A stretch of DNA of 64,000 nt from the human T2T-CHM13v2.0 reference genome, Homo sapiens: assembly GCF_009914755.1 (NCBI RefSeq), contig NC_060935.1; one strand, given 5' to 3'. The notes beneath the pieces were generated by a model that did not search any database, was not told the DNA's origin, and saw only the letters and a list, made by a program, of their open reading frames with translations. The first letter of the stretch is position 1, and every line of letters starts with the position of its first letter. Shown piece by piece: positions 3,296 through 24,493 of this stretch. The translations under genes and the position numbers were made by a program.

Positions 3296-6200
3296 ATACC
3301 TCAAGAGTAAGCAGAGAGGTACAGGAAATAAACCACTGAACCCAGAGAGAGGGATCAGCCACTAATGATTATGCAGCCATAAGCTGGTCATTTATCCTCT
3401 CTTGGCCTTGGTTTTCTTCTTTTGCAAAAGTGTGGTGTTGGAAAAGCTCTTTAGGGTCACTTCCTGGTCTAAAATTTTAATCATAAATATAATAATTAAG
3501 GTGTTTGCACAAAGGGCAGATTATGACATGTCAGAAGTATTATAGGGGATTTAACCATCAAATGCACCATGGAATTAAAATTAATTTAAGTTTTTTTATA
3601 ACTCTGGAATTAAGTTGATATAACCCAAACCGAAACTAGATCCGTAACCCCTACTTTAATGAGATATTAACTAAAGCATAACTGACCATTTCATATTTAT
3701 CATCTAAATCTTAACAGTTAAAATGTTTAATGAGAGAGGGGAAGGAAGAGGAAGAGAGCAGAAAGAACGGGAAATTTTGCTTTCTTTGAGCAGAATATTA
3801 GATGCAATTATATTCATGTGTTAATACGCTCTATTATTCTTGAGGCAGAGTCAATTAAGATAATGTGTGACACACAACATGTGACTTGGTAAGTAAAGAC
3901 ATAAAGAACAATTACAATTATATCAAACTGTTCTAGTGATGACATAATGAAAATCCTGCCGGGCATAGTCACCACAGTTTGTATCAATAAAATCCCAGCA
4001 TGGGACACTGGATTCTACCACCAAAAATTCTGCAATTTCTGCATCTGGAACTTTCATATAGAGACCAGTTCTGCTGCTCTTTGTCTCTTACAGTGATTCT
4101 GTGTATTCTGATCTCTTTTGCCTTGCCAATTCTGATGTAAAGTCCAGGGAAGATATGTCTGACTGTGGGAATTAGATATACTCTTGTTTCTATTTGCCAG
4201 GGAGGCTGATAAAATAAGTCTCTGGCATTTTCAGTTTCTAAAATGAAGGAAAAGTTGTACTTCACAACAGTGGGCCTTAACTAAAAAGAGGAAGAGGGAA
4301 GTTTTGTAATATGGCTGAGTAGAAGAAGCTATTATGCATTGTTTTCATGGAGAGAAGAAAGATTGGCGAATAAACACTGGTCTTCAACTGAAACATCCAG
4401 ATGGACACATTGAGGTTCATCAAGGAAACAACTGGACCCACGGAGAATGGACAGGGGTAAGACGGGATGGCTGCCCACCTGGGAGTGGCACAGAGCCAGG
4501 GGAGGCACCCTCACGCTGGGAAATGGTGAGAGTCCCTGGGGATCCATACTTCTGCCATGGACCTTTGCAACCCTGGCTCAGCAGACCCCCTGTGAACCTC
4601 CCCACCGGGGCCTCTAGACTGACACAGAGAGCTACGTGGAGTCTGGGTACAGCTGCCGCTCAGGCATACATGGAGTCCTGGGAGCCTTGGATCCTTGGGC
4701 ATCCCTGCATTAGCAACTGCAGCTCTGGCAATGGGGGAGGTCAAGCTCCTTCACAAGATCCCAGGAAAGGGTCTGAATCCAGGAGACAGAGCTGCAATAA
4801 AATGCAGGCCTCACCTGCACTGCATCTCACAGGACAAGGCCCATTGGCTTGGGGTGCTAGCGTGGCCACACTAGCCCTGTCTGGGCTCTGGGGCTGGTAG
4901 CCGGTCTGCACTTCCCTAGCAGGTAGTAGGTTTGCAGCTCCCAGAAGGAGCGGCAGGCCACAATTTTGCTATTTTGCAGCTCTAGCTCCTGTTGCCCTCA
5001 GGCTCTGGAGAGAGTGTGGTGATTAGGGAGTTGGGAGGATCTCCAGTACAAAGCTGTGGCCTCAAGGAAAAACAGCCAGACTATTTTCCACATGAGTCCC
5101 TGTTCCTGATTCTCCTCACTGGGTGGGGCCTGCCAACCTGGGACTTCACCACAGCTTCTGTGCCCCCATCTGAACACTTAGAGGCAGATCTGCATTTCTC
5201 CAAGGAGGAAAAACCAGAGGCAGCCCACAGCCCCTCCACCATTGCAGCTGCAGCAGTACCACCCTAAGCACCCTCAGACTGTGGAAGGAACAAAGAGCCT
5301 GGTCACTACACCTCCAGCACACCACAGTCATCATATGGTAAGGAGCCCAGTCTCTCTTTCCTTTGAGCTCTCCACTCCCCACTCTTTACCAGGCAGGGCC
5401 CCCTGGCTCAGGACCACAGAACAGCTGCCTGGTCCTCAGCTGAGCATACCTACTGGTAGTGGCTCTGTGTTTCTCTGGGGAGGGGCGCTCTCAGAGCAAC
5501 TGAGAGCCCCTATGTCACTGCTGTCCTTGTTCTGGGGAAAAAACAAAGAGGCTGAGGGTTTCACCCTTGCTTTCAGCACACCACAGTCACCATACAGAGA
5601 AGAGCCCAGTCTTTCCTCCCTGTGAGCCCTAATGAAGCGGAGCCCCCAGCTCAGGCCAGCAGTACAACCATCCTCCCCACTGGCTGAACATTCCTAGTAG
5701 CAGCAGCCCCACATTTCTCTGAGCTACTGTTCCCAGAGACAATCAAGAGCTCCTCTGCCACTGCCACTGCAGTGGTACTGCTCTTGCCACCCTCTGAATG
5801 AATAAGGAACACAGACCCTGAGTGCTTTAGCCTGACCTCCAGCAAGCTGCAGTTGCCCTGAGGAGAGGAGGCTAGTCTATCTCCTCCATGACCCCCTAAC
5901 CCTTCCTGCTCTCTACAAGGCAGGGCTCCCCCAGCTTGAGCCCACAGCACAGCTGCCCCACCCCAGGCAGATTGCACTGATTGATAGCAGCTCTGCATCT
6001 CTCTAGGGTGGAGTCCCAAGTGACAAGTGAAAGGCCCTCTGCCACAACCATTCCCAAGGTACCTTACTGTGCTGCTTCCAAGCTGCGGAAGGAATATAAA
6101 GCCTGAGCTCACCCCAGAGCTGTGGTGTGCAGCCTGAGAGTGCCAAGCTGATATCTGCAGCCAACACTCAAGTGGGAGAAGAGCCCACACTTTGAGACAA

Positions 6201-9193: not shown

Positions 9194-9689
9194 AAAGAAA
9201 TACAAGGCATCCTAACAGGAAGAAAGTCAAACTATCCCTGTTTGCAGATGATACGAATACATACCTAGAAAACCCCATAGTCTCTGCCCAAAAGTTCCTT
9301 GATTTGATAAACAACTTCAGCAAAGTTTCAAGAACTTTGCTTGGTTTAATAAACAACTTCAGCAAAGTTTCAAGAACTTCAGGAACAGATAACCAAATAC
9401 CACATGTTCTCACTTATAGGTCAAAACTGAATAATGAAAACACATGGACACAAAGAGGGGAACAACAGACACCCTGGGCATACTTCAGGGTGGAGGGTGG
9501 GAAGAGGCAGAGAAACAAAAAACTACACATCAGATACTATGTCTATTACCTGGGCAATGAAACAACCTGTACCCCAAACCCCCATTGATCCGCAGTTTAC
9601 CTACATAACAAACCTGCATAGGTACTCCTGAACTTAAAATAAAAGTTGGAAATTGAAAGAGGAATCGGATGTTAAACAACCAAAAAATG

Positions 9690-13529: not shown

Positions 13530-16255
<2,726 letters not shown>

Positions 16256-22585: not shown

Positions 22586-22840
22586 GTCTCAGCACTTGAG
22601 CTTCACATTGGCATCTCTTTGTCTTAGTCATTTGGTACTTCCCATTGTTTAGATATGCTTTACTTACTCTCCTCAGGAGGGCCTTCTGTTTGTCTGCCTG
22701 GAATTCTCTTGATCACCTCCCTCACCCTGCCTTTGGTTGGTTACCTCTTACTCTTCAATTTACTATTTCAGATCAAGTACACTTCTAGAAAGTCTTTCAT
22801 GTCCCCTTGGATTGGGTCGACTACCTGTATTTTACACTTT

Positions 22841-23603
22841 TTTTTTTTTATTTTACAACCAACAATATTTAATATTTCCTCATTGAAGAATAGATGTGAT
22901 AATTAAATCTTTTATAAGGCTTTAAAAAGACATGAAACATAAACCTAATTATACATAAAAGAAAATAATTTTAAACAAGAGCTTATTGTGATGACATTAC
23001 TCATAACTTTTACCTTTAAAACCTTTTCTTGGGTAGCTATTCAAAAGTAAAGACCGCAAATTTTGTTGCTCAGATTTCTTATGTTTTGTTTATTTAAGCT
23101 CTTTAGTTATTGACCAGATGTGTCATTAATTCATTTGGAGCATTACTATTATCAGTAAAATTTGATTTTTTTTTCCCTCAGTCATAGGTAAATCAGCTCC
23201 GCCTGGAATTTCTTTTTTTTTTAATTTATTATTATTTTACTTTAAGTTTTAGGGTACATGTGCACAATGTACAGGTTAGTTACATATGTATACATGTGCC
23301 ATGCTGGTGCGCTGCACCCACTAACTCTTCATCTAGCATTAGGTATATCTCCCAATGCTATCCCTCTCCCCTCCCCCCACCCCACAACAGTCCCCAGAGT
23401 GTGATGTTCCCCTTCCTGTGTCCATGTGTTCTCATTGTTCAATTCCCACCTATGAGTGAGAATATGCGGTATTTGGTTTTTTGTTCTTGCGATAGTTTAC
23501 TGAGAATGATGATTTCCAATTTCATCCATGTCCCCACAAAGGACGTGAACTCAATCATTTTTTATGGCTGCATAGTATTCCATGGTGTATATGTGCCACA
23601 TTT
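22841..23603 (-). mobile_element. L1PA2-type 5'-truncated insertion (L1 23213-23603) plus a ~360-bp 3' transduction (22855-23212) and second poly(A) tail
   Basis: L1 3'UTR ggttagttacatatg...gctggtgcgctgcacccactaactc carries GAG rather than the L1HS ACA/ACG. T tracts at 23213-23222 and 22838-22854. Perfect 55-bp flanking duplication at 22786-22840 and 23604-23658. Confidence 0.93.
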
Positions 23604-24493
23604 TAGAAAGTCTTTCATGTCCCCTTGGATTGGGTCGACTACCTGTATTTTACACTTTCATAGGACCATACAATAAAAGTGCGAATCCTACGAAGTCAGT
23701 GGGTTGACATTAAAAAAGAAACATCACACTCTACTAGGCTTTGAATCACTGAACTGGACGGTGTCCCCAAAGTCCTTTTAGTTCTAAAATGCTACGACTG
23801 CATGCGTACATTGAATTACTCATACTTGATTTTGGTGAGAGATCTACAAGGCAAGAAACCAAATTTCAAAAGAATTACTACAACTCCTTAATATATCTAC
23901 ACTAATGCAAGTATCATATGCAATATTTATTTGTTTCTTCTTGTCATCATTCTTATGTTTCAGAGCAATAATGTCATCTGGAACCTGTGAAGTGTTTGTG
24001 CTAGTGATTTTGTATCAAAGGGAACCAACACAATTGAATTAAGGTTAAAAATTCCTTTTTCCTCAGGTTATTTTCTTAAAGTAATAAAATAGTCTTGGTT
24101 TGGAGCTTGCTATTATATGTACCCAACAAATATTTGCTGTCCCGAAATATTGAAGATGTTAATACACTAATTATATCTTTCATTTTCCCTATTTATAAAA
24201 TAGGAAAATATTACCTATACTATTAGCAGTATATTACCTATATTGTTACTTATGTTACTAAAATATTGTCTACTATTATTAGAAAAATGTTAATTACCTG
24301 ACACAAAAGCATTCAATAAACTGTGATTATGAAAGAATCCAGCAGTAGAGAAAAAAGGTATATATATATATTTTTTGTTTATGGAAGCCTGTTCCCATCT
24401 GCTATCCAATCATTAGGTGCCAGGCACTTTAATCAGTGTGCTTCAGGCTGCCCTGCCTGACCAGGTGCCTGATTATTTAAAATGGAGACACCT

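What the first reader, a model, noticed from the sequence alone, without database searches (positions are those of the whole stretch)
22841..23603. Young L1PA2 insertion carrying a ~360-bp 3' transduction with two poly(A) tails
Seen, reading the minus strand: ~380 bp of L1 3' end (23603 to 23223), an A10 tail (23213-23222), ~360 bp I do not recognise as a repeat (22855-23212), and a second A-rich tail (22838-22854). All of this lies inside one flanking duplication. An ATTAAA hexamer (plus-strand tttaat, 22868-22873) sits ~13-18 nt before the second tail, and an internal AATAAA (23089-23094) was read through. Established: L1 transcripts can bypass their weak poly(A) signal and mobilise downstream flank (3' transduction). 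Inference: this segment is a barcode of the active source L1PA2 elsewhere in the genome.
Basis: partly seen in the sequence, partly recalled or inferred. Interest (0 to 1): 0.8.

Follow-up and report, generated by a model that had tools for sequence, protein, structure and literature searches.

The report
L1 insertion carrying FGL2 3'UTR end
One old LINE-1 jump on chromosome 11 carried along the last ~360 bases of the FGL2 gene's messenger RNA from chromosome 7, a clean but ordinary example of LINE-1 copying pieces of genes to new places.

Summary
On the minus strand there is a 381-nt L1 3' end, an A10 run, about 365 nt of non-repeat DNA with ATTAAA near its end, and a short A tail. All of it lies inside a perfect 55-bp target-site duplication.

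The non-L1 segment has exactly one other copy in this genome, at 97% identity: chr7:78,444,485-78,444,851. No L1 lies upstream of it there. It is the last ~365 nt of a ~2.9-kb 3'UTR of a two-exon, 439-aa fibrinogen-domain gene that I identify as FGL2.

Two known mechanisms fit:
- **3' transduction (about 0.6).** The source would be an L1 that once sat in the FGL2 3'UTR and has since been lost. The chr7 junction TT|AGAA looks like an L1 endonuclease site.
- **Template-switch chimera (about 0.3).** Reverse transcription would start on FGL2 mRNA and jump to L1 RNA.

The "L1PA2" label could not be tested. Divergence suggests an insertion that predates humans. No ape genomes were available, so the empty-site test was not run. 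This is a known kind of event and of low interest.

The parts
23604..23658 (-). Upstream (5') copy of the target-site duplication, 55 nt. It is preceded on the minus strand by ...CCTATG, so the target is TG|AAAG.
   Evidence: The boundary with L1 was set.
23223..23603 (-). 5'-truncated L1 (L1PA-type) 3' end, 381 nt: the end of ORF2 plus the 3'UTR, ending ...AATAATAATAAATT.
   Evidence: 40 other scored genome places, 39 of them at 96-97% identity over nearly the whole 388-nt query and one partial at 95%, out of 3832 first-look candidates; 5 private differences in 378 nt against 29 nearest copies; older L1 fragments in the window match at 78-84%.
23213..23222 (-). Internal A10 run, the L1's own poly(A). 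The last A (23213) could equally be the first base of the chr7-derived segment.
22848..23212 (-). Copy of the last ~365 nt of the FGL2 3'UTR (chr7:78,444,485-78,444,851, minus strand), with 10 substitutions and 1 single-base indel.
   Evidence: 97%, 1-358 of 358; 97.0% over 367; alignment; position within the 2908-nt UTR.
22868..22873 (-). ATTAAA poly(A) signal, 18-20 nt before the end of the chr7 homology. It is also present at chr7, where a GU-rich stretch (TGTACTTGTGTCTG) follows the cleavage point.
22841..22847 (-). Untemplated terminal A tail, about 7 nt. Its limits are ambiguous by a few A's on each side.
22786..22840 (-). Downstream (3') copy of the target-site duplication, 55 nt, identical to the upstream copy.

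Best explanation
The 763-bp insert was made in one L1 target-primed reverse transcription event at chr11:42,120,841-42,121,603.

The most likely template was a read-through L1 transcript, that is, a 3' transduction. On this reading, an L1 once sat in sense orientation inside the FGL2 3'UTR on chr7, inserted at ...GGGTCCTT|AGAAATT (between chr7:78,444,852 and 78,444,851). Transcription ran through the L1's own weak poly(A) signal and its A tail. It was then cleaved about 365 nt further on at FGL2's ATTAAA site. The RNA was reverse transcribed at a nick at TG|AAAG on chr11, and cDNA synthesis stopped 381 nt into the L1. A second nick 55 bp away gave an unusually long duplication. The L1-bearing FGL2 allele was later lost, so only the empty site remains.

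Shown here:
- the single-event structure;
- the chr7 origin of the segment;
- its position at the end of the FGL2 3'UTR;
- the absence of an L1 there in this assembly.

Inferred:
- that a source L1 ever existed at chr7;
- that it was lost by drift;
- the age of the insertion.
For: 1. One 55-nt perfect duplication brackets L1 + A10 + segment + A tail. There is no separate duplication around the L1 piece alone.
2. The segment has one other copy only, at chr7 with 97% identity, co-linear from its first to its last base.
3. Homology at chr7 starts exactly at TT|AGAA. From recall (Jurka 1997), this is one of the preferred one-mismatch variants of the L1 endonuclease target TT|AAAA. The TT/AAAA motif is also stated in PMC13174262 (passages). 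Only 34 of 2903 positions (1.17%) of this 69% A+T UTR carry TTAAAA or one of six such variants. Among 157 A-rich positions, 20 (12.7%) are preceded by TT.
4. Homology ends 18-20 nt after ATTAAA.
5. No other FGL2 retrocopy exists. The 1909-nt Alu-free UTR query gave 2 of 2 scored places: itself and a 67% match on chr12. FGL2 mRNA is therefore not a habitual template for trans retroposition.
6. In the known L1 chimeras read about here, L1 is the 3' part (PMC13174262 sections 10 and 12; PMC2104539 passages). The opposite order seen here is the order that transduction predicts.
Against: - The defining feature, an L1 directly upstream of the source segment, is absent in this assembly. The source element is hypothetical.
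- The segment is the exact 3' end of a gene's UTR, on that gene's strand. A template-switch chimera predicts this outright. Transduction needs a source L1 that happened to land in sense orientation in a terminal exon. By my own rough estimate, well under 1% of random genomic positions qualify.
- No sibling insertions share the tag.
- The TT before the junction could also reflect a preferred RNA breakage point after U. That is speculation on my part.
- That FGL2 mRNA really ends at this site rests on sequence features and on my recollection of the RefSeq transcript length. No annotation call supports it.
Confidence: 0.6

Rival explanations
1. Template-switch (or RNA-ligation) chimeric retrocopy. 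L1 reverse transcriptase primed on the poly(A) tail of an FGL2 mRNA, or of a 3' fragment of it. It copied about 365 nt, then jumped to the poly(A) tail of an L1 RNA in the same particle. It copied about 10 A's and 381 nt of L1 before the cDNA was joined to the target. On this reading no L1 ever sat in FGL2.
For: - Every component exists today and nothing needs to have been lost. chr7 has no L1 at the junction.
- The segment ends at the apparent FGL2 poly(A) site and lies wholly within its terminal exon.
- Both parts are in the same orientation inside one duplication, with an A run between them.
- Jumps onto other polyadenylated RNAs are documented: 452 Alu/LINE-1 chimeras, mostly in sense orientation (PMC13174262 section 12).
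- Catalogues that look only 5' of L1 would not have seen this class (PMC13174262 sections 10 and 12, and passages).
Against: - The order is the reverse of all catalogued types read here. In those, L1 is the first template and so the 3' part.
- It needs a trans event on an mRNA that has left no other retrocopy.
- The switch point falls on TT|AGAA, a 1.17% class of positions in the UTR.
- The 80 nt of FGL2 RNA upstream of the switch point show no unusual hairpin that might pause the enzyme. The z-score is -0.48, and 59 of 200 shuffles fold at least as well.
Confidence: 0.3
2. Two separate insertions. A short FGL2 3'UTR retrocopy landed first, and an L1 fragment later landed exactly at its 5' edge, or the reverse order.
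For: Adjacent independent insertions are common in A-rich targets. This is general knowledge, not a call.
Against: - Only one duplication exists, and it brackets the whole 763 bp.
- The L1 + A10 piece has no flanking repeat of its own...CTTTCTA before it, GAAATTCC after it.
- A second insertion would have had to hit the exact boundary base.
Confidence: 0.03
3. The segment is local pre-existing chr11 sequence, or a DNA-level duplication of chr7, with no retroposition involved.
For: None was found.
Against: - The segment lies inside the duplication, next to the A tail.
- Its homology with chr7 stops exactly at a poly(A) addition point after ATTAAA, and exactly at the A10 run on the other side.
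- The chr7 flanks do not continue at chr11.
Confidence: 0.01

Closest known systems
L1 3' transduction. Recalled, not read here: Moran et al. 1999 Science; Pickeral et al. 2000 Genome Res; Goodier et al. 2000 Hum Mol Genet; Szak et al. 2003 Genome Biol.
   Same: It has an L1 3' end with its own A tail, then unique DNA, then a second poly(A) preceded by a poly(A) signal, all within one target-site duplication. The unique DNA maps to one other locus.
   Different: The source locus carries no L1 in this assembly. The tag is the terminal part of a protein-coding gene's 3'UTR rather than anonymous flank, and there are no siblings. The 55-bp duplication is much longer than the 7-20 bp that I recall as usual.
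L1 chimeric retrocopies made by template switching or RNA ligation, such as U6/L1 and Alu/L1. Sources: Law and Burns 2026, PMC13174262 (sections 9, 10, 12, 43 and passages read); Gogvadze et al. 2007, PMC2104539 (passages read); Buzdin et al. 2002/2003 (recalled).
   Same: cDNAs of two different transcripts are fused head to tail in the same orientation, bounded by one duplication, with a poly(A) at the 3' end.
   Different: In the catalogued types the L1 is the 3' part and the partner RNA is 5'. Here L1 is the 5' part and an mRNA end is the 3' part.
5'-truncated processed pseudogene (mRNA retrocopy)
   Same: The FGL2-derived part ends at a poly(A) site and carries an A tail followed by a duplication.
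   Different: It holds 3'UTR only, with no coding sequence or exon junction, so intron loss cannot be shown. It is fused to an L1 end. The hub's gene table for this window lists no pseudogene there.

Membership tests
L1 3' transduction | L1 3' end with its own A tail, followed by non-L1 DNA and a second poly(A) tail | tested here: met
   sequence; L1 identity, 96-97% to many genomic L1 3' ends.
L1 3' transduction | One target-site duplication brackets the L1 plus the extra DNA | tested here: met
   (58 nt, 57 of 58), refined to a perfect 55 nt. One search gives E = 1.6e-24.
L1 3' transduction | The extra DNA maps to a locus elsewhere, directly downstream of a source L1 | tested here: not met
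   The locus was found (chr7, 97%), but no L1 lies upstream within the ~7 kb checked on that side of L003. Only the empty-site form is present in this assembly, so membership is inferred rather than demonstrated.
L1 3' transduction | The empty source site looks like an L1 endonuclease target (TT|AAAA-like) at the start of the transduced DNA | tested here: met
   The junction is TT|AGAA. This class covers 34 of 2903 UTR positions. The hexamer set is recalled from Jurka 1997.
L1 3' transduction | A poly(A) signal lies 10-30 nt before the second tail | tested here: met
   ATTAAA lies 18-20 nt before the end of homology.
L1 3' transduction | The orthologous site in outgroup primates lacks the insert and one duplication copy | not testable with these tools
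   states that the window's genome has no relatives held, and no primate collection is offered.
Template-switch L1 chimeric retrocopy | cDNAs of two distinct transcripts are fused in the same orientation inside one duplication, and no genomic locus holds them contiguously | tested here: met
   This holds for this assembly only.
Template-switch L1 chimeric retrocopy | L1 (the first template) forms the 3' part and the partner RNA the 5' part | tested here: not met
   Here L1 is the 5' part. The catalogued types are described in PMC13174262 and PMC2104539.
L1PA2 subfamily | Subfamily-diagnostic bases in the 3'UTR and the end of ORF2 | not testable with these tools
   No L1 subfamily reference is held. 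By recalled diagnostics the element has GAG and A where the human-specific Ta lineage has ACA and G, so it is not L1HS-Ta. L1PA2 cannot be told from L1PA3 or L1PA4. Divergence is compatible with L1PA2 or L1PA3.
FGL2 (fibroleukin) as parent gene of the segment | Two-exon gene on chromosome 7 encoding 439 aa with a C-terminal fibrinogen-related domain | tested here: met
   One search gives the two ORFs. One search gives the single strong GT-AG pairing that yields 439 aa. One search gives fibrinogen-domain matches down to E = 4.9e-53. One search gives the top Atlas cluster 'Fibroleukin' at 0.97. PMC5356913 passage: 7q11.23, two exons, 439 aa. The cytoband of chr7:78.4 Mb was not checked by a tool.
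FGL2 (fibroleukin) as parent gene of the segment | The segment ends at the annotated FGL2 mRNA 3' end | tested here: inconclusive
   It lies on the same strand, 2908 nt after the stop codon, with ATTAAA plus a GU-rich downstream element. No annotation of chr7 was available, and one paper search gave nothing. The transcript length of about 4.2 kb is recalled only.

The most novel reading that the evidence does not exclude
This may be an mRNA-first L1 chimera. On this reading, L1 reverse transcriptase began on FGL2 mRNA and then switched back to L1 RNA, giving L1-An-mRNA end-An. That would be a reversed-order class of L1 chimera. Current catalogues look only 5' of L1 and cannot see it, and it is routinely counted as 3' transduction. 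Some share of 'parentless' transductions would then really be RNA recombination products.
Probability: 0.3. Interest if true: 0.45.

Novelty: new member of a known kind. Interest (0 to 1): 0.25.

Why it matters
On either reading this is a textbook kind of event: L1 machinery moving a piece of a gene's transcript to another chromosome. Its use is as a marker.

- If a source L1 is found in the FGL2 3'UTR of some ape or human haplotype, the locus documents a once-active L1 that used a host gene's poly(A) site.
- If no such L1 ever existed, the locus is an example of a chimera class that current catalogues do not search for.

The copy holds 3'UTR only and lies in a gene-poor stretch, so no functional effect is expected.

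Tried and rejected
- **Source inside the window.** There is no second copy of the segment in the 64 kb.
- **Source L1 at chr7.** BLAST of the whole chr11 insert plus flanks against 10 kb of chr7 matched the segment only.
- **Siblings or other FGL2 retrocopies.**
  - The whole-UTR query was swamped by an Alu; only 40 of 3639 candidates were scored.
  - The Alu-free 1909-nt query found only chr7 itself and a 67% match on chr12.
- **Naming the gene from solved structures.** The PDB holds no FGL2 chain. Only the fibrinogen-domain family came back.
- **L1 subfamily.** I found no usable reference for it. I counted private differences against 29 neighbour copies instead and built no consensus.
- **Pause-site hairpin upstream of the chr7 junction.** None was found; z = -0.48.
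- **Literature.**
  - FGL2 + transduction + LINE-1 gave 1 paper, which was irrelevant.
  - Szak et al. 2003 is not held.
  - A search for the FGL2 UTR or poly(A) site gave nothing useful.
  - Law and Burns 2026 does not mention FGL2 in its main text. I did not open its supplementary tables.
- **Two-insertion and pre-existing-sequence readings.** Both were rejected on the single duplication and the exact homology ends.

Full report
**What is in the sequence**

Read on the minus strand, the region has these parts in order:
- a direct repeat copy (23658-23604);
- 381 nt that match L1 3' ends (23603-23223);
- an A10 run (23222-23213);
- about 365 nt of non-repeat DNA (23212-22848) with ATTAAA at 22873-22868;
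- about 7 untemplated A's;
- the second repeat copy (22840-22786).

The repeat finder reports the repeat as 58 nt with 57 of 58 matching, spaced 818 nt. Within-window BLAST gives E = 1.6e-24. In 27 of 27 close genomic L1 copies that contain the anchor, out of 29 fetched, L1 reads ...TAAGAAAA just before TGTGGCAC. The three A's after position 55 are therefore L1 sequence, and the single "mismatch" is simply the end of the duplication. The duplication is a perfect 55 nt, with one base of possible overlap. I found no separate duplication around the L1 + A10 piece alone, so this was one insertion event.

**Where the extra segment comes from**

The assembly that holds the window could be searched. 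The 358-nt segment has exactly two places: itself and chr7:78,444,492-78,444,850 on the minus strand, at 97% identity over the whole query (2 candidates, both scored). Aligning the whole insert plus flanks to 10 kb of chr7 matches only the segment, at 97.0% over 367 nt.

The pairwise alignment shows where homology starts and ends.
- It starts at chr7 ...GGGTCCTT|AGAAATTCC, just after the A10 run in chr11.
- It ends at ...GGTTGTAAAATAA|TATTTATG, where chr11 continues with A's and then the duplication.

No L1 lies upstream at chr7. There are no sibling copies.

**What the chr7 locus is**

Two long open frames lie upstream of the segment on the same strand of chr7. Joining them at the only strong splice pair (CAG|GTATGT ... 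CCCCTTCAG|) gives 439 codons from ATG to TAA. Three results identify the gene:
- The second exon encodes a fibrinogen C-terminal domain. PDB matches to angiopoietin-2, fibrinogen-like protein 1 and ficolins reach E = 4.9e-53.
- The closest ESM Atlas cluster is named "Fibroleukin" at 0.97.
- A review states that FGL2 lies at 7q11.23, has two exons and encodes 439 aa (PMC5356913, passage).

I therefore take the gene to be FGL2. I also recognise the sequence from memory.

The stop codon lies 2908 nt upstream of the end of homology. The UTR is 69% A+T. ATTAAA starts 26 nt before that end, and a GU-rich stretch follows the cleavage point. The "transduced barcode" is thus the last ~365 nt of the FGL2 3'UTR, ending at what looks like the gene's own poly(A) site. 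I could not confirm the annotated mRNA end with a tool. The recalled RefSeq length of about 4.2 kb fits 613 + 3615 nt plus a short leader.

**Two mechanisms fit**

(A) 3' transduction. An L1 once sat in sense orientation in the FGL2 3'UTR. Its transcript read through to the FGL2 poly(A) site and was retrotransposed to chr11, and the L1-bearing allele was later lost.

(B) Template switch. L1 reverse transcriptase started on FGL2 mRNA and jumped to the poly(A) tail of an L1 RNA.

For A:
- The chr7 junction is TT|AGAA, a one-mismatch variant of the L1 endonuclease target TT|AAAA. The motif is given in PMC13174262. The list of preferred variants is recalled from Jurka 1997.
- Only 34 of 2903 UTR positions (1.17%) carry TTAAAA or one of six such variants. 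Even among 157 A-rich positions, only 20 (12.7%) follow TT.
- FGL2 has no other retrocopy.
- The L1-first order is what transduction predicts. In the chimeras catalogued in the papers I read, L1 is the 3' part: 253 small-RNA/L1 and 452 Alu/L1 chimeras in PMC13174262 sections 10 and 12, and PMC2104539 passages.

For B:
- Nothing has to be lost.
- The segment is exactly an mRNA 3' end, which transduction from a random source would rarely give.
- Jumps onto polyadenylated RNAs are documented.

Against B:
- The FGL2 RNA just upstream of the junction shows no unusual structure that might pause the enzyme. The z-score is -0.48, and 59 of 200 shuffles fold at least as well.

My rough prior counts for the two classes, from recalled genome-wide figures, are of the same order. 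The junction motif tips the balance. I give A 0.6, B 0.3, and the remainder to other readings.

**Age and subfamily**

- The L1 part is 96-97% identical over nearly its whole length to 39 of the 40 other scored genomic copies; the 40th is a partial match at 95% (40 scored of 3832 candidates).
- It has 5 private differences (4 substitutions and 1 inserted base) in 378 nt, measured against bases shared by at least 80% of its 29 nearest copies.
- The FGL2-derived part differs from chr7 by 10 substitutions and 1 indel in about 365 nt.
- Two of those substitutions are CpG in chr11 against TpG in chr7.
- The duplication copies show 0 differences in 55 nt.

Pooled, this is about 1.2% change per lineage. 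With recalled ape divergences, that places the insertion before the human-chimpanzee split and probably after the split from Old World monkeys. This is compatible with L1PA2 or L1PA3.

By recalled diagnostic bases the element is not of the human-specific Ta lineage. The label L1PA2 could not be tested, because no subfamily reference is held. "Young" is relative; this is not a recent human insertion.

**What could not be done**

No primate genome is available, so the orthologous empty site at chr11 and a possible L1-bearing FGL2 allele in apes were not checked. The supplementary tables of Law and Burns 2026 were not opened. Szak et al. 2003, Pickeral et al. 2000, Goodier et al. 2000, Moran et al. 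1999, Jurka 1997 and Buzdin et al. are cited from memory only. My one search for this locus in print (FGL2 + transduction + LINE-1) found 1 paper, which was irrelevant. That is one search of an open-access library, not proof that the locus is undescribed.

**Verdict**

It is a single L1-mediated event carrying a tag from chr7, but the tag is the end of the FGL2 3'UTR and the source L1 is missing. Classical 3' transduction is therefore favoured but not demonstrated, and a reversed-order template-switch chimera remains a live alternative. Either way this is a new instance of a known kind of event, with no expected function. Interest is low (0.25).

Noticed in passing
window 13700-13869 (+) and 9380-9507 (-): Two older L1 3'-end fragments match the L1 part of the insert at 84% and 78%. 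They are much more diverged than the element studied.
   Followed up: no
L003:~4767-5092 (chr7, inside the FGL2 3'UTR): An Alu-like repeat sits in the FGL2 3'UTR. Query positions ~309-634 of the UTR hit many genomic places at 83-88% (40 of 3639 candidates scored).
   Followed up: partly
L015 (chr12:88,460,430-88,460,932): A 67% match to about 490 nt of the Alu-free FGL2 3'UTR query (positions 215-702). It is probably an old interspersed repeat embedded in the UTR.
   Followed up: no
window 23090 and 23103-23112 versus L003: The poly(A)-like hexamers differ between the two copies. chr11 has AATAAA where chr7 has AATATA. chr7 has AATAAATAAA where chr11 has AATAACTAAA. The ancestral states are unknown without an outgroup.
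   Followed up: partly
window 22693-22705 and 23198-23210: A 13-nt near-repeat (12 of 13; TCTGCCTGGAATT and TCCGCCTGGAATT on the plus strand) links the start of the FGL2-derived segment with chr11 flank about 80 nt beyond the duplication (family D6). It is probably chance.
   Followed up: no
The target nick site TG|AAAG is a poor match to TT|AAAA.
   Followed up: partly
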